From a bacterium (GTDB lineage: Bacteria > UBA8248), in assembly GCA_965204535.1 (NCBI GenBank), contig CBDBEV010000001.1, positions 704,001-768,000 on the forward strand: 64,000 nt of DNA, given 5' to 3'. The position numbers and the translations under genes were made by a program. The notes beneath the pieces were generated by a model. It had not been told where the DNA came from. It saw nothing but the letters and a program-made list of their open reading frames with translations, and searched no databases. This document shows positions 6,235 to 23,491 of this stretch, in pieces. Positions within the stretch are counted from its first letter, which is position 1, and the number at the start of each line of letters is the position of its first letter.

Positions 6235-8589
6235 TCATCCCGGCGCCGTGAGGGCGCGCCTGCGCTCCGTGCTCATCGACCAGGGCAGCCACGCGGAGAG
6301 GTCCCCGGGCGCCCGGCCGCCGTTCTCCGCGCAGGCCGTGAGCCATGCCTCCAGCCAGCGGAGCGGGTCGACCCCGTTCGACGCGAGGGTTCCGAGGACC
6401 GAGTACATCATCGCCGTAAACCTGGCGCCGGCCTCGCTGTCGGAGCCGAACGAGAGCCGCCTGCCGATCACAGGGCCCCGAAGCGCACGTTCGCTGGCGT
6501 TGTTATCCATCGGCACCGAGGGGCGTTCGATGAAGACGCTCAGCCCCTCGCGGTGGTTCAGCAGCGAGCGAAGCGCCTTGCCCTCGCGCGCCTGCGCGGG
6601 CAGAGCGGCCATCTCCCGTCGGGCCTGCGCGAACAGGTCCTTGAGCGCCTTCTTCAATTCGTCGTGCGCCGCGTCGAACGCCGCATCCTGGCGTTCGACG
6701 CCCGGGTCGTAACTGGCCAGGCGCGCCTCGTTCAGGCGGTAAAGCAAGGCAATCCGCTCGATCCATCTCTCGCACCACGGCGTCAGCCGCTCATCGCCGG
6801 CGGCGCAGTGGATATAATCGCGCCGGACGTGACTCCAGCACCATGCGAGAGTCACCAGACCCCCGGGAATGCGCGCCAGCTTCTTGTAGGCGCTGTAGCG
6901 GTCGCAGACGATGACCGTATGGGAGCCGGCCGCGCCGAACAGCTTCATCGCGACCTCAGCACTCCGCGAGGGGTCGACGTGGAAGTAGACGGAGTCTGCG
7001 CTGACCGAGGTCCACAGCCAGGCGCGGCTCGAGCGTCCTTGTTCGCGAAGCGACTGAACGCGCCACGTCGTCTCGTCCCCGTGACGCACCGCCGCTTCGT
7101 TCTGGCGGTCGAGGATCGCCGCAGCCAGCGGCTCGAAGAGCGGCGTGAAGCGGTGCGTGCTGTCGCCCAGTGTGCCTGCAGAGACCGGAAGCCCCTGGTC
7201 GGAGAGCCACGCGGCGACCCGGCGCAGCGGGCGGAAGCAGGCGTAGCGCTCGAACAGGAAGCGCGCCCACACGCTCGTCCCGTAAGGCGTGCCCGCGAAC
7301 AGGCGCGGCGCGGCGGGCGCCGACACTTCCACCGGAGACGACGCGCACGCGCATCTCCTGCGCCATCTCGGACGGCGGATGACGCGCTTGTGGGCCGAGA
7401 CTTCGATCTCGAAGATGGAGGAGACCTCGGCGCCATTGGCCACGTAGGGCTTCCCGCAACCGGCGCAGACGCGCGCACCGGCCGGCGGGTTGCGAACTTC
7501 GGTCCTCTCATCGAGCGCGGGCCGCGGGGTGCGGCCATGACCGGCGGCGCCGGGTTGCCGGCCGCGCCTGCGCTCCGAGCGCGGCCTCTCCTGCCGTTCG
7601 CTCTTGCGCCCGAACAGTCTTCTCGCCAGCACCGCTCCGGTGGCGCGAAGCTTCGCGAGATCGGCCTCCAGCCGCGCCCGGATGGTCTCTGACTTGCGGA
7701 GCGCCCTGCGAAGACGCCCGTTCTCCCTCGACAGCGACCTGAGCGCCGTCTTCTGGCGCCGCGACCTCCCCAGGGCCTTGCGCAGTTCCTCATCTGCACG
7801 AGACGGCGACTTCGAGCGCGCCGCCTCGAGAGCGCGCAGCAACCGCGCCTTCAGCCGTTCGGTCGCAATGCCTACGGCCCCCAGGGAGACTTCAAGACGG
7901 TAGACCTCCGCAGACAGCGACTCGACCACCTCCGCCTGGTCGCGCAATCGCCTCAACTTCCTGTAGAGCCCGATGGCCTCCTCGTCCAGGCTCCGAATGG
8001 TCTCCTTGTCGGTCGCCGACTTCTGCTTCTCCAGGGCCAGACGATCTTCGAGCCGGGCAACTTCCTTCTCCCGCCGGCCGACCTCCTTGCGCAGGGCATG
8101 AATCGTCTCCTTGCGCTCCTCCAGGGCCTTGCGCAGCCGCCCCGCCTCCCCCGGCGACGGCACGCCCGAGAGCTCCTTGCGAAGCCGGACGACCTCCATG
8201 CGCAGCGACATGAGCGGGCTGCGCTTGCGCGGATCGACCCCCGCCTCCGCAAGCAGCTTCTCCAGCCGCGCCACTTCCGCCTTGAGCGACAGCGCGTCCT
8301 TCGCCGCGCGGCGGGCTTCCTTCGCCTCCCCGGCGGCCGCCTCGAGCTTCTTCCGGCTGGCGTCGAGATGCCGCTTCAGCTTGCCCGCACGGGAGCGGGA
8401 ATCCACTTCCGCCCAACGCAACTCCTCGCAGCGCGCCTCCGCCGCCTCCGCGCGCGCACGCTCGCGCTCGTACAGCGAACGCCAGTACGCCTCTGCGGTT
8501 GTGGACAACCCGGGGGAATGAGGCCATGGCTCATCCGGCCTCTCGGCCAACGCCAACTCCGTCTCGACAGCTTCTGCGCGAATCTTCAT
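6235..8589 (-). CDS. IS66-family DDE transposase (TnpC) with long N-terminal coiled coil
   Basis: LFGRKSE, CxxCG...CxC Zn ribbon, HGDETTW, CDRYSAY, CWSHVRR and DNNASERALR motifs. Confidence 0.93.
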   Translation of the reverse strand: MKIRAEAVETELALAERPDEPWPHSPGLSTTAEAYWRSLYERERARAEAAEARCEELRWAEVDSRSRAGKLKRHLDASRKKLEAAAGEAKEARRAAKDALSLKAEVARLEKLLAEAGVDPRKRSPLMSLRMEVVRLRKELSGVPSPGEAGRLRKALEERKETIHALRKEVGRREKEVARLEDRLALEKQKSATDKETIRSLDEEAIGLYRKLRRLRDQAEVVESLSAEVYRLEVSLGAVGIATERLKARLLRALEAARSKSPSRADEELRKALGRSRRQKTALRSLSRENGRLRRALRKSETIRARLEADLAKLRATGAVLARRLFGRKSERQERPRSERRRGRQPGAAGHGRTPRPALDERTEVRNPPAGARVCAGCGKPYVANGAEVSSIFEIEVSAHKRVIRRPRWRRRCACASSPVEVSAPAAPRLFAGTPYGTSVWARFLFERYACFRPLRRVAAWLSDQGLPVSAGTLGDSTHRFTPLFEPLAAAILDRQNEAAVRHGDETTWRVQSLREQGRSSRAWLWTSVSADSVYFHVDPSRSAEVAMKLFGAAGSHTVIVCDRYSAYKKLARIPGGLVTLAWCWSHVRRDYIHCAAGDERLTPWCERWIERIALLYRLNEARLASYDPGVERQDAAFDAAHDELKKALKDLFAQARREMAALPAQAREGKALRSLLNHREGLSVFIERPSVPMDNNASERALRGPVIGRRLSFGSDSEAGARFTAMMYSVLGTLASNGVDPLRWLEAWLTACAENGGRAPGDLSAWLPWSMSTERRRALTAPG

Positions 8590-8835: not shown

Positions 8836-8848
8836 GAGGTTGTTTCGT

Positions 8849-9877
8849 ATGGCCAAAGTCAGGCAAACCGAAAGGATAAGGGCGTATATCCTCGATAATG
8901 TTGAAGCGCACCCGCAGGATATCGCCAGGGCGACGTCCGAGAGATTCGGGGTTTCCAGGTCCGCCGTGAGCAAGCACTTGAGGTCGCTCGTTGATGGCGG
9001 TTTCCTGGAATCGAGCGGAACAACGAGTGCGCGCAGGTATTCTCTGCGAAAAATCCTGGATGAGAGCTGGGTGTTCAAGGTCGATGAAATCGAGGAAGAC
9101 CGCGTTTGGCGTGAATATGTACGACCCCACCTGAAAGAGCTTTCCGAGAACATATATGGCATTTGTTATTTCGGTTTCACGGAAATGCTGAATAATGTGA
9201 TTGACCATTCAGAGTCGAAAGAAGCCAGAGTTCACCTGTCCCGAACTGCAACGAACATTACGATAGATGTAATAGACGCAGGCGTCGGGATTTTCAGGAA
9301 GATTCAGTCGGAGTTCGACTTGCACGATCCCCGCCACGCCCTTTTGGAACTGTCGAAAGGAAAACTCACGACGGACGAGGCGAGGCACACCGGCGAAGGG
9401 ATATTTTATACCTCGCGAATGTTCGACAGGTTTTCCATCATCTCGGGTACCCTTTGCTTCATTCGTGAAAACGATGAGGACGACTGGCTGATTGAAACGT
9501 CGGAGGGAAAGAGCCTTCCAGGAACCATCATCAGGTTAGAAATAAAAACCAAGACGCAAAGAACGCCAGAAGAAATCTATGAGAAATTCGCTGCGGGAGA
9601 TGAGGGCTTTGATTTTTCCAGAACCCATGTTCCCCTGCAGCTTCTGTTGTATGAAGGAGAAGAGCTCATTTCCCGCTCTCAGGCCAAGAGGTTGTTGATG
9701 CGCCTCGATGGCTTCCGGGAAGTCCTTCTCGATTTCAAGGGGATACAGAGAATCGGTCAGGCGTTCGCGGATGAAATTTTCAGGGTCTATAAAAACGCGT
9801 ATCCCCAAGTAGAAGTCATAGCCGTCAGGGCAACCGAACACGTGCAGCAAATGATCGACCGGGCAAGACGCCGATGA
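8849..9877 (+). CDS. wHTH + histidine-kinase-like (GHKL) ATPase + STAS-like (DUF4325) protein
   Basis: HTH GVSRSAVSKHLRSL; EMLNNVIDHS, DAGVGI and HTGEGIF boxes; LISRSQAKR...LDFKGI..IGQAFADEIFR; GAGGT RBS before ATG 8849. Confidence 0.85.
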   Translation: MAKVRQTERIRAYILDNVEAHPQDIARATSERFGVSRSAVSKHLRSLVDGGFLESSGTTSARRYSLRKILDESWVFKVDEIEEDRVWREYVRPHLKELSENIYGICYFGFTEMLNNVIDHSESKEARVHLSRTATNITIDVIDAGVGIFRKIQSEFDLHDPRHALLELSKGKLTTDEARHTGEGIFYTSRMFDRFSIISGTLCFIRENDEDDWLIETSEGKSLPGTIIRLEIKTKTQRTPEEIYEKFAAGDEGFDFSRTHVPLQLLLYEGEELISRSQAKRLLMRLDGFREVLLDFKGIQRIGQAFADEIFRVYKNAYPQVEVIAVRATEHVQQMIDRARRR

Positions 9878-14023: not shown

Positions 14024-14120
14024 AGCTCAACCTCCCTGTAGTGATTGCCTCGAAAAGCGAACTTCTTCAGGAACTTCCTCAAACGTCCAGGTGAAACCCG
14101 GGTTCCCCTTCTCCGGAACA

Positions 14121-14355
14121 GCAACCCCCCCTTCCCCCCCTTATCAGGGGGGTTTTTTCTTATCCCCCTTGTCAGGGGGGCCTTCTTTTTTACCCCCTTT
14201 GTCTGGAGGGCAGGAAAAAACAAAAACCCCTCTACCGGCGGCGGGCGTCGCCTTTTCATACCCCCCTGTCAAGGGGGGGTAGGGGGGGGTTGCCTTTCCA
14301 GAAGAAAGGAGCGTTCTCTCTGCCCCCCTGAAAAGGGGTCTTTTTCAACAACCTC
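14121..14355. repeat. Cluster of CCCCCCTTGTCAGGGGGG hairpin repeats with one IS-like end
   Basis: Several C6-(TT)G(T/A)CA-G6 palindromes; core CCCTCTACCGGCGGCGGGC..CGCCTTTTCATAC; ends TTTTTCAACAACCTC (14341-14355). Confidence 0.8.
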
Positions 14356-15986: not shown

Positions 15987-16502
15987 GGGGTGATGAAAAA
16001 GCCTTTGTCAAAGGAGCAACCCCCCCCTACCCCCCCTTGTCAGGGGGGCAAAAAAAGAAAACCCCCCTCGCCGGGGGCGCCGCCTTTACCTCCCTGAGGA
16101 GCGTCCGGGCGTAGACGACGGAAAGCGAATTCCTGTCGAGGGGTTTTGACTTTACCCCCCTGACAAGGGGGGTAGGGGGGGTTGGTTTTCGAGTCGAGGA
16201 GCATTTTCAACGGCCCCTGGCAAGAGAGGTGGACGAAAAGCCCCCGGGAAGCGATTTTGAATTTCACTCCCCCCTTGAGGGGGTCGGGCTTCCCGAGGGG
16301 AAAGCCCGACAGAGGCCGAGTTCTTTGGACGAAGGCCGATGTGGTGGGGGGACATGCCACAGAAAAAGCTCCCCCCACCGACTCGCTTGCGGGCTTCGCC
16401 CTTACCTCGTCGACTCCCCCTCAAGGGGGGAGTTGATTTGAAATTCTCTTTGGTGGATAGGCCTCGCTGCAGACGTCAAGTACTGACTATTTCAACAACC
16501 CC
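15987..16502. repeat. Composite MITE/REP region: hairpin family A (16017-16182) plus AATCACTCCCCC family element (16260-16438), bounded by IS-like ends
   Basis: GGGGTGATGAAAAA (15987), TTTTCAACGGCCCC (16204), TTTCAACAACCCC (16490); internal palindromes homologous to 14121, 52584 and 1578. Confidence 0.8.
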
Positions 16503-17795: not shown

Positions 17796-18036
17796 GGTTT
17801 CTCCTCATAGGGGGTCCGGTAAAGCCGGGGGGTTGCCCGACTGGCCCTGGCTTTTTGTCGATGGCTTCGGGAACGAGTATAGCCGAATTATGAACCCGAA
17901 TGCGTGAAGAGGGAAGGGGGGATTGAATGGAAGGTGGGGGAGGTTATGGAGTTTTTTGTGCTAATTTTAGCAACCCTACCCTCACGCTCACGATTGGAAC
18001 TTTTTCATCTGCACTTTGTTAGCTGGCGCTCTTCTT

Positions 18037-21000
18037 TCATGGTGTTAGAACATCCCTGATTATGTCTGCAATGGCTTTGGCGTCAATCCCACCTACTTCG
18101 TTGTCCCGCGTAATAATTAACGTGCCCGCGCTACCACCTCCATCTTTATATGGGAGAATGCCAGCTTCACGGTAAGCATGTAACTTTCGCTGCCAGCGCG
18201 CCGCATATTCGGGGTTGTGGAGTAAACCGAGGTGTTCCCAATAATAGCGCGCACCAGTGTCATCATCGACAATGGTGAAGTCTGGATAGCGCGTTTTGCC
18301 GCTTGGCAAGGTAAGTGGTTCTTCGTATTCGTAACGATCAATCCCTTGAGCGAGGAGTTCGTTCGCAATAATGACCTCGGATTTGGATCGGACGAGATCG
18401 CCACGCTTGGTGCGATGGATGAGCCTTTCCTCGAGGAACTTCTCATTACCGTCGCTTTCTTGGAACCTGATGGGGTTGGGAGGTGCAAAGAGATTCGTCA
18501 GCCTGCGCGCGATGTCGGAATGATTGTCGTTTGCATATCGACGAAGATCACGCACATCTCCTTGGTGCAGGATGACAACGCGATCTTGTTGGCGTGTCAA
18601 CGCCGTGTACAACAGTTCCCGGGAGAGCAGCCAACATGGGTTGGGTAGCACGACGAAGGTGATTCCAAACTCGCTTCCTTGCGTTTTATGTACTGTCAGC
18701 GCATACGCAAGTTCAAGGGGTGGTGCTCCTTTCTCGCCGTCGAACTCCCAAATCCGAAAGTCGTAGTCATGACCTGGTTGCGATGTAAACTCCACCTCTA
18801 GGAATGGAAACAGTTTTTTTTGTTTCTTGGTTTTGTAATTACCTACAACGAGGCCGACATCCCCGTTAGCAACATAAGGGGTTCGGTCAGGTTCAGGATA
18901 TACTCTACGTTTACTGCTATTCTGCAAATTTATAACTTTGTCGCCATAGATGATCCCTTGGGGACCAATAGGACTGTTAATTTTACGCTGCCTGTTATAC
19001 GAAGTCGCCCGAGATAGCCATGTCCTGCGAAATGTTTGCTGTACAATCCGGTTCAGGGCAGCAACACCATGTTCTGCGCCACGCACAGGCGAGATGATCT
19101 GCCATCGTTCAGCCTTAGGCGAATCATCTACATTCTGACTCCGCCAGAAGAAAGTCCCATTATTGAACATGGTTGCACCCAGACTACACTCGAAGCCTAC
19201 TTCGTCGTCTGGACCGTCGAGACCGAGTTCCTTGACAATTAATGTGAGTAGCTTCTCCTGAAGATCCACTCCGTTAATCCAAGACTCGAAGTAGATATCA
19301 GTCATTGTCTCTGTTGTAAGCCGATCCCATATCTCGTCTGCTGCGGGATCCGGATCGCCTCCGAACCAGTTAGCTAACAGAAGGTCTGCACGTCTCGTTC
19401 CTTGCTGGCGGCGAGGAATGATGAGTTCAGCATAGCCACGACCAACCCTCGGGAAGCGGTGCTCAATACCCTCGGGCTTGAGTTCCTTTACGATGTCCAC
19501 AAAGGGACGACCACTTCCGATGGGAGGAAGTTGACGATGATCCCCTACGAGCACCAAGCGATCAACGCCGCTCAGACCGTCGAGCAAAGCGGCAAGTTGC
19601 TCTTCAGTCAGCATAGAGCATTCGTCCACAATCACGGTCCTGTAGTCACTGCAACGATTTGAACTACCGGTTACAATGTAACGACCCGTTTCAGGATCAT
19701 ATCGGTCACCGTAACGCATCAGGAACTGTGCGATCGTAAATCCGTTGCCTACTTCAGTCTCGGTTTCGAGTTGGACACGGGCTTTGCCAGTAGGTGCCAA
19801 CAACAGAACTCCACCTAGGGCGACATCTTCCAGTTCGCAAAGCATCTTCAAAAGAGTTGTTTTCCCAGTACCTGCTGCACCGATAAGTACGGAAAATCTT
19901 GATGCAAAGAGTTCTTCAAGAGCAGCGGCCTTCTCGCATCGCGCTTGAGCTTCGATCTTCGCCTCATCGGAGTCGGTCGGTAAAGCATCCAAAGCCTGGT
20001 TTATCACTGCAGAGTAGTCGTATTTGCCACAATGTCTTTGACTCTTGGGGCCTATGCGCTTGAGCACGGTGCGCTGGATCAGCTTGGCCGTGTCGGCCAA
20101 TCGCTGAAGCTGGTAGCCTATCTTGCCATTCGCTATCTCTATGGTTTCAATAGCTCCATCCAAAAAATCTTCAAGGCCGGTAAATATTTCTGGCCCTAGT
20201 GGGCAATCGGTATCGAGTGGCATGTTGTTGATAAGCGACCTTAACCATGCCCGTGGCAATAATGTGTGCCCCTGCTCAGTTCCTTGCTCGAGTGCGGCAA
20301 CCATGAGAGCGCGCACACGGCGGGGATCAACTTTGTCCTCGAGTCGCGTGCGTTCAGGTAGAGGATGCGCTTCGATAACCACACGATCCGGTAACATGCC
20401 GCGGTCGATGGTCATTAGCGAGATATGGTCGACCGTCGTACGGTCGAGTTCGTATAAGAGATAGGGGTTCGCAATTAGCGATGCGTCGTCTACGTCGGTC
20501 TCTCTTTTTTCGGGGTCGAAGAACCGAATCACTTGGTCGGTATCTAGTGAGAAACGACTGAGTAGCTTTAGTAATTCTTTTCGTTTTTCAGTCATGGAAA
20601 GCCATGCCCGAGAGAATCCTTCTCCAATTAGTTCTTTGGCCGCACCGGTCGCTGTGCTGGGAGTTTGCATGATGCGTTCAAAGGTAGGCCACGGATCGAT
20701 ATTCCTGTCGTTGCTTCCTTTTGTGCATTCGTCAGCGATCTCGTAGGCAACGAGACTTCCTCCGTCGCCTAAGAATGCCGAAAGAGCCGACCCGAAGCCC
20801 GGGAATGGACCTCTCATGCGCCACAACCGATTTAGTTGCTGGTCGAGCCACGCAGATGCCTGTGTCCAAGGTCCAGTTAGGACGGCTTGAATTCGTTCTA
20901 GGGCGCGAAGACAGTTCAATACAGTTGCGATGGCGTGATCGTGCGACACATGCTCTGATCCGTACGAGAAACTCCAAAAGGCATCATCAGGAGCAAAAGC

Positions 21001-21789
21001 AAGAAACTGCTCTGGGTCAATACCTTTTTCAAGCGCGAGATCGAACAGCTCTTGATATGGAAAGAGGAAACCTTCTTTAAAGCCCGGTCGAATGGAATGC
21101 TCAACATTGCGTTCCCAGAGTACACTGCGGTGAGGCGGGTTCGGTGTCGAATACTGATATTCGACGTGCTCATCGACTGCTCGTACTATGCCTATACCCA
21201 CGATTACTCGTCCAGCGGATACCGACAGTGGAGTGTCCTTCGCATAGAAGAAGCAGAGCGATTCCTCGGGGCGGATAGCACCGAAAAACGTGTCGAGCAT
21301 GACGAGTTGGTTGGAGCGCTCTTGTATCCAATCTGTATCAAACCCAAGGTCGGGTTCGCAATCAGGTTGGAAACCCAAATTATAGCACTCGACAAAGTTT
21401 GAGCTTTCCTTCGTCAACATCCAACGATATGGCACACAAGCAGCGCTATAAGGGCGCATGGTGTAGGGTGTCGGAAGGAAGTGCCCATACGATTCCGGAT
21501 TACGCTCGACATAGGGATGCTGTTTGATGTCCGTTAGTGGGAAAGGAGCCATGAAGTTCATACGCTCGGCGATGCATGGGGGCAATTGGTCGGGTGCCAG
21601 ATTTTCGATAGATTTACCAGCCAAAGTTACTTCTGCTTTGTCGTCTTTCATCTCCGCGACTCTCGGCAGTATACGGCAAGCCATGTTGCTCGCAGGTTTG
21701 TTGCAGATTGTTCCAGCCCAGCCAGCATCATGCCATGGTACTCGAATCGAAAGGTGCTGAATTGGAAGCTTGCGTGCTCCCGCAATCAT
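18037..21789 (-). CDS. RecD2-like SF1B helicase with large N-terminal domain and C-terminal Vsr/DUF559-like nuclease
   Basis: GAAGTGKT, LLLAPTGKA, VIVDECSM, LVGDHRQLPPIGSG, AYALTVHKTQGSEF, ELLYTALTR; C-terminal VRSKSEVIIAN..YEYE..YPDFTI..YWEHLG; visibly lower GC than its flanks. Confidence 0.88.
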   Translation of the reverse strand: MIAGARKLPIQHLSIRVPWHDAGWAGTICNKPASNMACRILPRVAEMKDDKAEVTLAGKSIENLAPDQLPPCIAERMNFMAPFPLTDIKQHPYVERNPESYGHFLPTPYTMRPYSAACVPYRWMLTKESSNFVECYNLGFQPDCEPDLGFDTDWIQERSNQLVMLDTFFGAIRPEESLCFFYAKDTPLSVSAGRVIVGIGIVRAVDEHVEYQYSTPNPPHRSVLWERNVEHSIRPGFKEGFLFPYQELFDLALEKGIDPEQFLAFAPDDAFWSFSYGSEHVSHDHAIATVLNCLRALERIQAVLTGPWTQASAWLDQQLNRLWRMRGPFPGFGSALSAFLGDGGSLVAYEIADECTKGSNDRNIDPWPTFERIMQTPSTATGAAKELIGEGFSRAWLSMTEKRKELLKLLSRFSLDTDQVIRFFDPEKRETDVDDASLIANPYLLYELDRTTVDHISLMTIDRGMLPDRVVIEAHPLPERTRLEDKVDPRRVRALMVAALEQGTEQGHTLLPRAWLRSLINNMPLDTDCPLGPEIFTGLEDFLDGAIETIEIANGKIGYQLQRLADTAKLIQRTVLKRIGPKSQRHCGKYDYSAVINQALDALPTDSDEAKIEAQARCEKAAALEELFASRFSVLIGAAGTGKTTLLKMLCELEDVALGGVLLLAPTGKARVQLETETEVGNGFTIAQFLMRYGDRYDPETGRYIVTGSSNRCSDYRTVIVDECSMLTEEQLAALLDGLSGVDRLVLVGDHRQLPPIGSGRPFVDIVKELKPEGIEHRFPRVGRGYAELIIPRRQQGTRRADLLLANWFGGDPDPAADEIWDRLTTETMTDIYFESWINGVDLQEKLLTLIVKELGLDGPDDEVGFECSLGATMFNNGTFFWRSQNVDDSPKAERWQIISPVRGAEHGVAALNRIVQQTFRRTWLSRATSYNRQRKINSPIGPQGIIYGDKVINLQNSSKRRVYPEPDRTPYVANGDVGLVVGNYKTKKQKKLFPFLEVEFTSQPGHDYDFRIWEFDGEKGAPPLELAYALTVHKTQGSEFGITFVVLPNPCWLLSRELLYTALTRQQDRVVILHQGDVRDLRRYANDNHSDIARRLTNLFAPPNPIRFQESDGNEKFLEERLIHRTKRGDLVRSKSEVIIANELLAQGIDRYEYEEPLTLPSGKTRYPDFTIVDDDTGARYYWEHLGLLHNPEYAARWQRKLHAYREAGILPYKDGGGSAGTLIITRDNEVGGIDAKAIADIIRDVLTP

Positions 21790-21900
21790 GTATGTCTCCC
21801 TCAGTTCATTACTTAAATTCAGTTAGTATCTTTTGCTTCGATCATAACTGATTCACTGCTGTCCAGCGATCTAGGTTTCGCTTTTTTGTGAAGGAACGTT

Positions 21901-22002
21901 ATAGGAAATACCAGCGCGCTGTTCATCGTCGTGGAGAGGATGGTGAACGGCAAGGACATGCGCGCGCAGTTGCTTGAGAAGATCGGCGCGGCGGGTGGGT
22001 GA
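21901..22002 (+). pseudogene. 3' remnant of a gene, resembling the C-terminus of type III restriction (Res) subunits
   Basis: Open frame ...ALFIVVERMVNGKDMRAQLLEKIGAAGG-stop with no start codon; family resemblance is from recall and unverified. Confidence 0.35.
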
Positions 22003-22049
22003 TGTTCTGGTCCGGCAATCGCTCCCGCAACCGCCTCCGTCGTCATCTC

Positions 22050-22222
22050 TGGATTCCGGCCTTCGCCGGAATAACGACCCAAAGCGAGTTCGACGCGCAT
22101 TCTCTGATCGGGTCGCGTCGAACCCCTCTTGCCTGGAAAAGCAACCCCCCCTACCCCCCCTTGTCAGGGGGGTATGAAAAGGCAACGCCCGCCGCCGGTA
22201 GGGGGGCTTTTTAGGCACCCCC
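22050..22222. repeat. REP hairpins: TGGATTCCGGCCTTCGCCGGAAT and a family A half-element
   Basis: Match to 48108-48133 and 48224-48249, and to the 14121/52584 elements. Confidence 0.75.
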
Positions 22223-22435
22223 TCTCCAGCCGGATTCGATTCCGCACCTTCCGTCCGGGGATTCATCCCTCGCGCGGGGATCGCATTTCCCCGTATTTGC
22301 CGTCGGGGGTTTTCGCGTCGATGGGGCTATGCTGGAGAGGCCGCCCGTTTGCTTTTGGTTTTTCACGCGGTGAAGCGCTCATCGCTCCCTCCCGGCATCC
22401 GGGCGAAATTCTTCACGTCTCGTTCGAAATCGACC

Positions 22436-22690
22436 CGCATTTGCCCGCATTTCCCGTCGCGCTGCCCGGGGCGCGAGCGCGTATGATGGCGAAGCCGGGC
22501 GGTTTCGTTCGAGAAAATGGAATTTCCGTAAATTTCGATAAAATTAGATAAATTAACGGGGTTTTTCGATAAATTGACGGGGTATTTCTGAAAATTAAAT
22601 TCTCGGGAAATGACGCTGCGGAATCGGGGCGCAGGGGAATTCTGCCACGATCGGCCGGCCCGGCCATGACGGCAAATGCGGGCAGTTGCG
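22436..22690. mobile_element. ~255-bp MITE-like element, copy 1 (inverted copy at 34432-34676)
   Basis: Imperfect 23-bp TIRs CGCATTTGCCCGCATTTCCCGTC / GACGGCAAATGCGGGCAGTTGCG, AT-rich core, colinear with the reverse complement of 34432-34676; solo TIR at 22282-22304. Confidence 0.75.
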
Positions 22691-22795
22691 GGGGAGGAAA
22701 TCCCTCGGGCGCGCTTTGCACCGGCGCGCGGGTATTGTAAGAATACGGGTGGCCGCAAGGGCCTGATTTTCTTGAGTTTCCTGGGAGAGGCGGAT

Positions 22796-23491
22796 ATGGC
22801 GCGGCGCATGATTCTGGTGTTGACACTTGGCGTTCTCGCCGGCCTGATGGCCGCGCCCGCGTGGCGGTGGCTTGAGAGAAGCCTTTTCGAGAGCCTGCCC
22901 GTATATTCGCAACTGCCTGATTTTACGCTGGTTGACGCATCGGGCCGGGCGTTCGCGAGAGAGCGCCTGAAGGGCAAAGTCTGGGTGGCCGACTTCATCT
23001 ACACGCGGTGTGAGGATACCTGCCCCCTCCAGAGCGTCGAGATGCGCAGGCTGCAGGGGGCGTTCGCCGCACACCCGGATTTCCGGCAGATATCCATCAC
23101 CACCGACCCTGCTTTCGATAAGGCGGAGCGCCTCGCGGCCTATGCGCGAAAGTTCGCCGCGGACAGGGCGCGCTGGTTTTTCCTCACGGGCAAGGAAAAG
23201 GAAATCAAGGACTTGGCGCTCAAGGGTTTCCGGCTGAGCTATGCGACGAAACAAGCCATGCGCTTGCCCGGTTCGGTCGGCGGGCGGTTCTTCCGGCTTC
23301 TTTTGCCCCATGCGCACGCGCATCACCCCGGGCATCAGGAGGGGGGAAAGACGCCGGGAATCCTGATCTCCCACAGCTCGCGCTTCGTGCTCATCGACAG
23401 GAACTTCACCATTAGAGGCTATTACCACAGCAACGACGCGGAATCTCTCGAGAAGTTGAGGAAGGATTTGAGGGTCCTGCTAAACAGTTGA
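22796..23491 (+). CDS. SCO1/SenC copper chaperone
   Basis: N-terminal TM anchor, FIYTRCEDTCP (CxxxC), ISHSSRFVLID conserved His. Confidence 0.92.
   Translation: MARRMILVLTLGVLAGLMAAPAWRWLERSLFESLPVYSQLPDFTLVDASGRAFARERLKGKVWVADFIYTRCEDTCPLQSVEMRRLQGAFAAHPDFRQISITTDPAFDKAERLAAYARKFAADRARWFFLTGKEKEIKDLALKGFRLSYATKQAMRLPGSVGGRFFRLLLPHAHAHHPGHQEGGKTPGILISHSSRFVLIDRNFTIRGYYHSNDAESLEKLRKDLRVLLNS

What the first reader, a model, noticed from the sequence alone, without database searches (positions are those of the whole stretch)
18037..21789. Foreign-looking 1250-aa RecD2-like helicase-nuclease fusion, candidate single-gene anti-phage system
Seen: lower-GC gene with complete SF1B motifs, about 600 aa of N-terminal sequence starting with a RVPWHD.GW.G.IC..P..N..C motif, and a C-terminal PDF...WEH nuclease. 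The host already has AddAB, so this is not RecBCD. Established: several defence proteins are helicase-nuclease fusions (e.g. Nhi, Hna). Inference: the N-terminus senses foreign or modified DNA and the helicase-nuclease degrades it.
Basis: partly seen in the sequence, partly recalled or inferred. Interest (0 to 1): 0.72.

Follow-up and report, generated by a model that had tools for sequence, protein, structure and literature searches.

The report
Modified-base reader on mobile helicase-nuclease
This intact 1250-residue gene belongs to a catalogued but untested family of candidate anti-phage proteins and fills a chromosomal slot that a related species fills with restriction genes; its front end is predicted to fold like the domains that read chemically modified bases, so it likely finds and cuts modified phage DNA.

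Summary
The ORF is real and intact (18037-21789, minus strand). It is a full-length member of PADLOC PDC-S68 (1524 bits), an untested single-gene defence candidate. It is not the housekeeping RecD2, which the host encodes elsewhere.

Defence is well supported by context. 17 of 24 homologue loci have a PADLOC gene within four genes, against 2 of 13 ordinary RecD2 loci. A congener fills the same slot with a type I R-M system plus HEC-01, and this allele keeps a type III res scar. The closest relatives (70-75%) are in other phyla; 3 of 22 congeners match, elsewhere.

The orphan N-terminus shrinks to about 440 residues. Residues 10-300 (pLDDT 94) match EVE/YTH/ASCH readers: best Z 6.7, with nearly all of the top 22 rows of this class and unrelated rows at 2.6 or less. 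Residues 483-572 are a RecD2-like winged helix. The nuclease rests on invariant motifs only.

Best reading: a one-chain, modification-dependent (type IV-like) restriction enzyme with an SF1B motor; base reading and protection are untested. The scan had filed this family and the PUA-like fold before on other DNA; I saw the fold notes only after my own fold search.

The parts
18037..21789 (-). PDC-S68 family gene, 1250 aa, intact
   Evidence: PADLOC PDLC05065 1524.5 bits, residues 9-1247 against profile 4-1218/1221
20875..21789 (-). Residues 1-305: predicted PUA-superfamily (EVE/YTH-like) core with large insertions; conserved C29/C38/C72 plus H12/H20/H91 (possible metal site, inferred) and conserved aromatics W19, W24, W123, W154, F168, Y182, W225
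   Evidence: AF2 pLDDT 94.0, pTM 0.91; VIA rows 1-8 Z 6.7-5.0; Foldseek; conservation in 130 representatives
20344..20874 (-). Residues 306-482: helical region, in part like the RecD2 N-terminal helical part
   Evidence: DSSP of the model; BFVD top hit a RecD2-like HHH-domain protein, E 6.1e-5; 3e1s aligns from residue 443
20074..20343 (-). Residues 483-572: winged helix, as in RecD2
   Evidence: VIA 3bz6 Z 8.2; RecD2 3e1s Z 6.9 over 443-587
18565..19953 (-). Residues about 613-1075: SF1B (RecD/RecD2-like) helicase core with all motifs
   Evidence: (best PDB match RecD2 3e1s, E 1.9e-33)
18040..18444 (-). Residues about 1116-1250: putative restriction-endonuclease-fold nuclease (S-K-x-E ... P-D-F-T ... 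W-E-H-x-G)
   Evidence: motif residues invariant in 19 of 19 aligned homologues; weak PDC-S69 match E 6.7e-5; fold not confirmed
17928..22231 (.). Variable slot (4.3 kb here) between the ridA-like gene and the SCO side; 7.6 kb type I R-M plus HEC-01 in G016; 269-bp remnant in G002
21919..22002 (+). Scar: last ~27 codons of a type III restriction (res) gene, 89% identical over 82 bp to the 3' end of a 982-aa type III res frame at G000:C2:1941035-1943983
   Evidence: REase_III 565 bits; upstream MTase_III 657 bits
22123..22215 (.). G/C-run-rich short dispersed repeat at the slot edge; 109 matches of 60 bp or more in the genome
16524..17795 (-). Flanking ridA-like gene (3 x Ribonuc_L-PSP), found in 15 of 22 congeners; anchor for synteny
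22676..23491 (+). Flanking SCO1/SenC gene; anchor on the other side

Best explanation
This is a horizontally mobile, single-chain helicase-nuclease of the PDC-S68 family that likely works as a modification-dependent (type IV-like) restriction enzyme: its N-terminal domain is predicted to fold like EVE/YTH readers and would bind a modified base in invading DNA, the RecD2-type motor would then run along the strand, and the putative C-terminal nuclease would cut. Shown: intact gene, family membership, motif conservation, defence-rich neighbourhoods, swappable slot, patchy cross-phylum spread. Predicted: the PUA-like fold. Inferred: base reading, base flipping into an aromatic pocket, 5'-to-3' translocation (from established RecD2/SF1B behaviour, recalled), nuclease activity, and protection from phage.
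For: Family: PDC-S68 over the whole length; PDC systems were picked as genes embedded in BREX, DISARM or type I R-M loci and are untested (bioRxiv 10.1101/2024.01.29.577857, passages). Context: 17 of 24 homologue loci against 2 of 13 RecD2-size control loci have a PADLOC hit at E<=1e-45 within four genes; 15 of 24 against 1 of 13 for named systems; Fisher p about 0.002 for both. The gene is embedded in type I R-M in L058 and between the DISARM methylase and drmA/drmB in L061, and lies next to Gabija, Azaca, Tiamat/Dsr1 and BREX genes in others. Slot: G016 holds type I R-M plus HEC-01 at the same position, and this allele keeps a type III res scar. Fold: residues 10-300 align with Mmi1 YTH (Z 6.7, rmsd 3.5, 123 of 134), THYN1 bound to 5mC DNA (Z 6.1, rmsd 3.6, 136 of 171) and the EVE domain of VcaM4I (Z 5.7, rmsd 3.5, 122 aligned over its residues 1-149); YTH, EVE, ASCH and McrB-N entries fill nearly all of the first 22 rows, and unrelated rows score 2.6 or less. 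Foldseek independently ranks such entries in 9 of its top 10 rows. Reader, motor and nuclease travel together: 66 of 66 representatives of 1100 aa or more have Walker A and 57 of 66 the exact PDF..WEH pattern. Precedent: PUA reader plus nuclease enzymes, and SauUSI with nuclease, helicase and reader in one chain (PMC6765204, PMC12707154, PMC7897488; passages).
Against: Best Z is 6.7, within the range the tool calls common; no Foldseek row reaches E<=0.001 (best 0.035). Profile comparison with an EVE alignment was not significant (E 0.5-0.8, no better than control segments). A shared fold shows no function: PUA-like domains also bind RNA or free m6dAMP (listing), and I had no coordinates to check a pocket. 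The nuclease fold was not confirmed: hhalign against DUF559 E 0.2, no PDB match below E 0.2, Atlas lead at 0.79 only. 7 of 24 homologue loci, and this window itself, have no intact defence neighbour at the threshold; 2 of 7 plasmid contexts viewed had no named defence gene. An ssDNA-translocating SF1B motor needs a loading strand, which double-strand readers such as SauUSI do not.
Confidence: 0.5

Rival explanations
1. It is a defence enzyme, but the N-terminal barrel binds unmodified nucleic acid or a structure (ends, forks, ssDNA of replicating phage), so it works like Nhi or Hna: structure-triggered unwinding and cutting.
For: All the context evidence for defence applies. SF1B motors load on ssDNA (established, recalled). 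The barrel carries about 170 extra residues relative to the matched readers, so its surface may differ.
Against: The closest folds are known modified-base readers, and aromatic residues in the domain are 97-100% conserved. Nhi matches only the helicase core.
Confidence: 0.24
2. The PUA-like domain senses a soluble modified nucleotide or RNA released during infection and switches on indiscriminate DNA degradation (abortive infection).
For: PUA-domain systems that sense m6dAMP are reported (10.1101/2025.11.05.686725 and 10.64898/2026.01.15.699771; listing and start of abstract only). The top structural rows are RNA-binding YTH domains. A few homologues carry extra C-terminal domains, one of them a Schlafen AlbA_2.
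Against: A DNA motor fused between reader and nuclease is simpler to explain by target tracking. YTH and EVE rows are tied within 1 Z unit.
Confidence: 0.13
3. It is a mobile accessory for repair or processing of modified or damaged DNA, or a helper of neighbouring R-M systems, and does not protect alone.
For: It is often embedded in or next to R-M, DISARM or BREX loci. HEC-01, another embedded candidate, gave no protection when tested.
Against: No fixed partner across loci; it stands alone here and in 7 of 24 loci. The host has its own RecD2 and AddAB-like genes. Seven of nine embedded candidates tested by the same authors protected.
Confidence: 0.11
4. It is a housekeeping RecD2 or RecBCD-type repair helicase inherited vertically.
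For: RecD2 is the nearest solved relative of the motor.
Against: 181.6 bits against a cut-off of 500; a true RecD2 (844.7 bits) lies elsewhere; found in only 3 of 22 congeners, at other loci; nearest relatives are in other phyla.
Confidence: 0.02

Closest known systems
PADLOC PDC-S68 (phage defence candidate, Payne et al., bioRxiv 10.1101/2024.01.29.577857)
   Same: Whole-length match to all three models, best 1524.5 bits; homologues embedded in type I R-M and DISARM loci.
   Different: Nothing in sequence. This copy stands alone in a variable slot rather than embedded. The main text has no passage with 'RecD' and no held paper contains 'PDC-S68'; the preprint's supplementary tables could not be seen.
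PUA-superfamily modification-dependent restriction enzymes (VcaM4I EVE-HNH; T. gammatolerans McrB YTH; SauUSI PLD-helicase-SRA)
   Same: Predicted EVE/YTH-like reader joined to a nuclease; SauUSI also carries a helicase in the same chain.
   Different: SF1B RecD2-type motor instead of none, an AAA+ GTPase or the SauUSI helicase; order reader-motor-nuclease; reader about 300 aa with a Cys/His insertion; modification dependence untested.
RecD2 (TIGR01448; D. radiodurans 3e1s)
   Same: Winged helix and SF1B core, residues about 443-1075.
   Different: Below cut-off; extra 440-aa N-terminus and C-terminal nuclease motifs; mobile; host has its own RecD2.
Nhi and Hna helicase-nuclease defence proteins (properties recalled)
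   Same: Single-gene helicase-nuclease logic.
   Different: Only a weak helicase-core match to Nhi (E 0.0011); different size and domain order; no Hna model among the 25 hits.

Membership tests
PADLOC PDC-S68 | Whole-length match to the PDC-S68 HMMs | tested here: met
   PDLC05065 1524.5 bits, 9-1247 against 4-1218/1221; PDLC05066 537.9; PDLC05064 424.1
PADLOC PDC-S68 | Family members found embedded in BREX, DISARM or type I R-M | tested here: met
   L058 hsdM-hsdS-SEFIR-[gene]-hsdR; L061 between DrmMI and DrmA/B; L059 between BrxD and BrxHI. This copy itself is not embedded.
PADLOC PDC-S68 | Anti-phage activity | not testable with these tools
   the 145 PDC systems are described as untested
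Type IV (modification-dependent) restriction enzymes with a PUA-superfamily reader | PUA-superfamily (EVE/YTH/SRA/ASCH) domain | tested here: met
   on a predicted model only: Z 6.7-5.0 for the first 8 rows, 117-136 residues aligned, unrelated rows 2.6 or less; 9 of top 10 Foldseek rows, each E>0.03; not seen at sequence level
Type IV (modification-dependent) restriction enzymes with a PUA-superfamily reader | Conserved pocket for a flipped modified base | tested here: inconclusive
   W154, Y182 and W225 are 97-99% conserved and lie, by eye, at EVE-like positions; no coordinates were available to check a pocket
Type IV (modification-dependent) restriction enzymes with a PUA-superfamily reader | Catalytic nuclease domain (PD-(D/E)xK, HNH or PLD) | tested here: inconclusive
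   E1138, P1169-D1170, E1185-H1186 invariant in 19 of 19; profile tests not significant; Atlas lead MTES_1575/DUF559 at 0.79
Type IV (modification-dependent) restriction enzymes with a PUA-superfamily reader | Cleavage depends on a modified base | not testable with these tools
   needs biochemistry
Type IV (modification-dependent) restriction enzymes with a PUA-superfamily reader | No dedicated cognate methyltransferase | tested here: met
   none in the 4.3-kb slot; no fixed partner across 24 loci
RecD2 (TIGR01448) | Score above the curated cut-off of 500 bits | tested here: not met
   181.6 bits; the host's own RecD2 scores 844.7
RecBCD subunit RecD | TIGR01447 cut-off and a RecC partner in the genome | tested here: not met
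   127.5 against 310.15 bits; PF04257 not found in G000, 95.7% complete
Nhi | Whole-length match to the Nhi model | tested here: not met
   15.7 bits on residues 624-753 only

The most novel reading that the evidence does not exclude
PDC-S68 is an undescribed, cross-phylum class of one-chain modification-dependent restriction enzymes in which an enlarged, probably metal-braced EVE/YTH reader recognises a phage base modification and hands the DNA to a RecD2-type motor and nuclease. It would be a reader-guided SF1B destroyer of modified phage genomes, an architecture not found in the type IV papers searched here.
Probability: 0.4. Interest if true: 0.75.

Novelty: new variant of a known kind. 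Interest (0 to 1): 0.55.

Why it matters
PDC-S68 is widespread (1214 clusters at 50% identity match the N-terminal domain; 21 plasmid records cover 80% or more of the protein) yet has no assigned mechanism. Placing an EVE/YTH-like reader at its front turns an anonymous candidate into a direct test: which modified base does it read, and does a RecD2-type motor extend the cut? A positive result would add a motor class to type IV restriction and might give a reagent for detecting modified DNA. The locus also shows defence turnover at one chromosomal slot among congeners.

Tried and rejected
Sequence-level naming of the N-terminus failed: no Pfam family of note, no NCBIfam hit on residues 1-597, no usable Atlas hit for a homologue's residues 1-330, and hhalign against 27 EVE proteins gave E 0.5-0.8 with control segments scoring as well or better.

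The nuclease fold was not confirmed; the C-terminal half was not folded, because both fold jobs went to the N-terminus.

GC content was rejected as stand-alone proof of transfer, because nearby syntenic selA/selB are equally low. Synteny was informative in only 2 of 10 congener flanks; the other 8 carry different genes upstream of the ridA-like gene. The 269-bp G002 remnant had no PADLOC or NCBIfam hit; its likeness to a type III res C-terminus is recalled only.

Alternative fusions: among 120 listed of 330 shorter hits, 10 had more than 60 unmatched residues, nearly all reading like out-of-frame tails; no alternative effector was established.

The promoter and terminator scan gave no more than shuffles. 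No tRNA in the window. No RNA holder listed. In phages: 2 of 50,697 records match, both short unannotated records.

Literature: searches listed no paper describing this architecture, and 'RecD' does not occur in the main text of PMC7641849, PMC11090510, PMC12839542 or PMC12707154. Subscription papers and the Payne preprint's supplementary tables were not visible.
Full report
Observation. The window holds one uninterrupted 1250-codon ORF at 18037-21789 on the minus strand. GC is 0.511 (GC3 0.506) against a genome median of 0.614. The selA/selB genes nearby are just as low, so composition alone does not prove transfer.

Identity. PADLOC gives a whole-length match to PDC-S68 (1524.5 bits). PDC systems are 145 untested candidates found embedded in BREX, DISARM and type I R-M loci (bioRxiv 10.1101/2024.01.29.577857; I read parts 1-2 of 5 and passages; its supplementary tables were not visible and may annotate this family). 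No held paper contains the string PDC-S68. The motor resembles RecD2 but scores 181.6 bits against a cut-off of 500. The host has a true RecD2 elsewhere (844.7 bits), an AddAB-like pair in this window and no detectable RecC.

Distribution. 2421 proteins matched among the 7995 candidates scored. The nearest named relatives, 70-75% identical over the whole length, come from Alphaproteobacteria, Gammaproteobacteria, Bryobacterales, Longimicrobiales, Binatia and Thermodesulfobacteriota MAGs. Only 3 of 22 congeners (79-100% complete) match: one whole copy at 45%, one in two contig-end pieces and one fragment, all at other loci. 21 of 25 matching plasmid records cover at least 80% of the protein. 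This pattern indicates repeated horizontal acquisition; I built no tree, so no donor is claimed.

The slot. I fetched the DNA upstream of the flanking ridA-like gene from 10 congeners; 2 are syntenic on both sides. In G002 the flanks match window 32450-22231 (95%) and 17921-16500, with only 269 bp between them. In G016 the same interval holds 7.6 kb: a type I HsdR, a fused HsdM-HsdS and a HEC-01A/B pair. In the window allele, 82 bp at 21919-22000 are 89% identical to the 3' end of a type III res frame elsewhere in this genome. A dispersed repeat with 109 long matches in the genome marks the slot edge. The slot therefore turns over defence cargo; how it is filled was not determined.

Neighbourhoods. 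With a home-made gene caller I scanned up to four genes on each side of 24 homologue loci (a 25th had no neighbour; 2 of the 24 are short fragments) and of 13 control loci with ordinary RecD2-size genes that lack the N-terminal domain (the first 13 of 22 that fitted the residue limit). At E<=1e-45, 17 of 24 against 2 of 13 have any PADLOC hit; leaving out a lone RT, PDC-only hits and a generic ABC hit gives 15 of 24 against 1 of 13; Fisher p is about 0.002. The loci are not fully independent, and two positives rest on a SNF2 helicase alone. Partners vary: type I R-M, DISARM, BREX, Gabija, Azaca, Tiamat, Dsr1, DruE, pAgo. Seven loci had none at this threshold. Of 7 plasmid contexts viewed, one has an integrase upstream and DISARM downstream, one a type ISP R-M gene directly upstream, and two no named defence gene. 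With no fixed partner, a single-gene unit is the simplest reading.

Anatomy. Residues 1-630 folded with pLDDT 91.9 and residues 1-305 with 94.0. Residues 483-572 are a winged helix, and 443-587 superpose on D. radiodurans RecD2 (Z 6.9), so the unassigned part is about 440 residues. Against 48,161 chains, residues 10-300 match Mmi1 YTH (Z 6.7, rmsd 3.5, 123 of 134 aligned), PH1033 (6.4), THYN1 with 5mC DNA (6.1, 136 of 171), the VcaM4I EVE domain (5.7) and further YTH, ASCH and McrB N-terminal entries; unrelated rows start at 2.6. Row 9 is the N-terminal part of a DISARM DrmAB chain, whose class I did not check. That the structural-genomics entries (1wmm, 2ar1, 2gbs, 2p5d, 2hd9) are EVE proteins is recalled. 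Foldseek puts such entries in 9 of its first 10 rows, none at E<=0.001. Each score is middling; the agreement of the whole list and the near-complete cover of the targets make the PUA-like assignment likely. About 170 residues are insertions. In 130 of 150 representatives with a long enough match, C29, C38 and C72 are 98-100% conserved and H12, H20 and H91 90-97%, which suggests a metal site (inference); W19, W123, W154, F168, Y182, W225 and H231 are 97-100% conserved. The C-terminal S-K-x-E, P-D-F-T and W-E-H-x-G motifs are invariant in 19 of 19 aligned homologues and look like a restriction-endonuclease active site (recalled pattern), but profile tests did not confirm the fold. All 66 representatives of 1100 aa or more have Walker A; 57 have the exact nuclease pattern, 7 a variant and 2 end before it.

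Mechanism. EVE domains flip 5mC or 5hmC into a hydrophobic pocket and are fused to nucleases in modification-dependent enzymes (PMC7897488 and PMC6765204, passages). SauUSI joins nuclease, helicase and reader in one ATP-dependent chain (PMC12707154, passages). By analogy the most likely working model is: reader binds a modified base in invading DNA, the SF1B motor translocates, the nuclease cuts (0.5). Rivals are structure-triggered defence with no base reading (0.24), sensing of a free modified nucleotide or RNA followed by abortive infection (0.13; two preprints seen as listings only), an accessory repair or helper role (0.11) and housekeeping (0.02). Defence of some kind totals about 0.87.

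Novelty. The gene is a member of a catalogued, untested family. The scan had filed five other windows under or beside this family and three with a PUA-like N-terminus. I recorded the fold idea and tested it, before seeing the latter; those notes are not independent support. What this locus adds is the allele series at one slot and a controlled neighbourhood count. Verdict: real, probably defensive, a new variant of a known kind; interest 0.55.

Noticed in passing
window 21919-22002 (+); G000:C2:1939785-1943983 (L218): 3'-end scar of a type III res gene at the slot edge; the related mod-res pair lies 1.2 Mb away, and a second degenerate copy of the same 3' end is at C2:323759-323852.
   Followed up: yes
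window 14112-14338, 16016-16450, 22123-22215: Family of G/C-run-rich short dispersed repeats (REP- or MITE-like), 314 blastn matches in the genome, 109 of 60 bp or more; different members sit at the same slot edge in G002 and G016.
   Followed up: partly
L041:3060-10109 (G016): Type I R-M with fused HsdM-HsdS (830 aa) and HsdR (851 aa), facing a HEC-01A/B pair, in the orthologous slot.
   Followed up: yes
L043:10295-10459 (G002): About 50-codon remnant with its stop codon in the near-empty slot; no HMM hit; recalled likeness to a type III res C-terminus.
   Followed up: partly
L050 (G002:C1:987500-1007400): The congener's own, distant PDC-S68 copy lies in a dense island: type I R-M with embedded Septu-like ATPase, then PD-Lambda-4A-like and DrmA genes.
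   Followed up: partly
P0286, P0311, P0359, P0386: Long PDC-S68 homologues with extra C-terminal domains: Schlafen AlbA_2 in P0286; the other three end in an R-x4-H motif suggestive of HEPN (recalled, no Pfam hit).
   Followed up: partly
L051, L052, L055, L056, L063: Recurring neighbours: a SNF2 helicase (DrmD/BrxH-like) and a TmtA-like protein directly beside the gene in several unrelated loci; possibly a sub-module worth its own look.
   Followed up: no
G000:C2 590836, 1504642, 351528, 2962188, 2362949, 1676839; C1 855604, 189134: Eight 939-1119-aa frames with a RecD/TraA-like helicase stretch, suggesting several integrated conjugative elements in this genome.
   Followed up: no
window 8840-9877 (+) and 6235-8589 (-): A second low-GC gene (HTH, HATPase, DUF4325; GC 0.505) next to an IS66 transposase.
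   Followed up: no
L138:9968-14966 (NZ_AP028130.1): On a Vibrio fluvialis record typed IncC the homologue lies 0.7 kb upstream of an annotated Qnr-family pentapeptide repeat gene.
   Followed up: no
model residues 12-295 against PDB 7s9w chain A residues 13-122: The N-terminal part of a DISARM DrmAB chain aligns with the PUA-like core (Z 5.0, rmsd 3.3, 106 residues).
   Followed up: no
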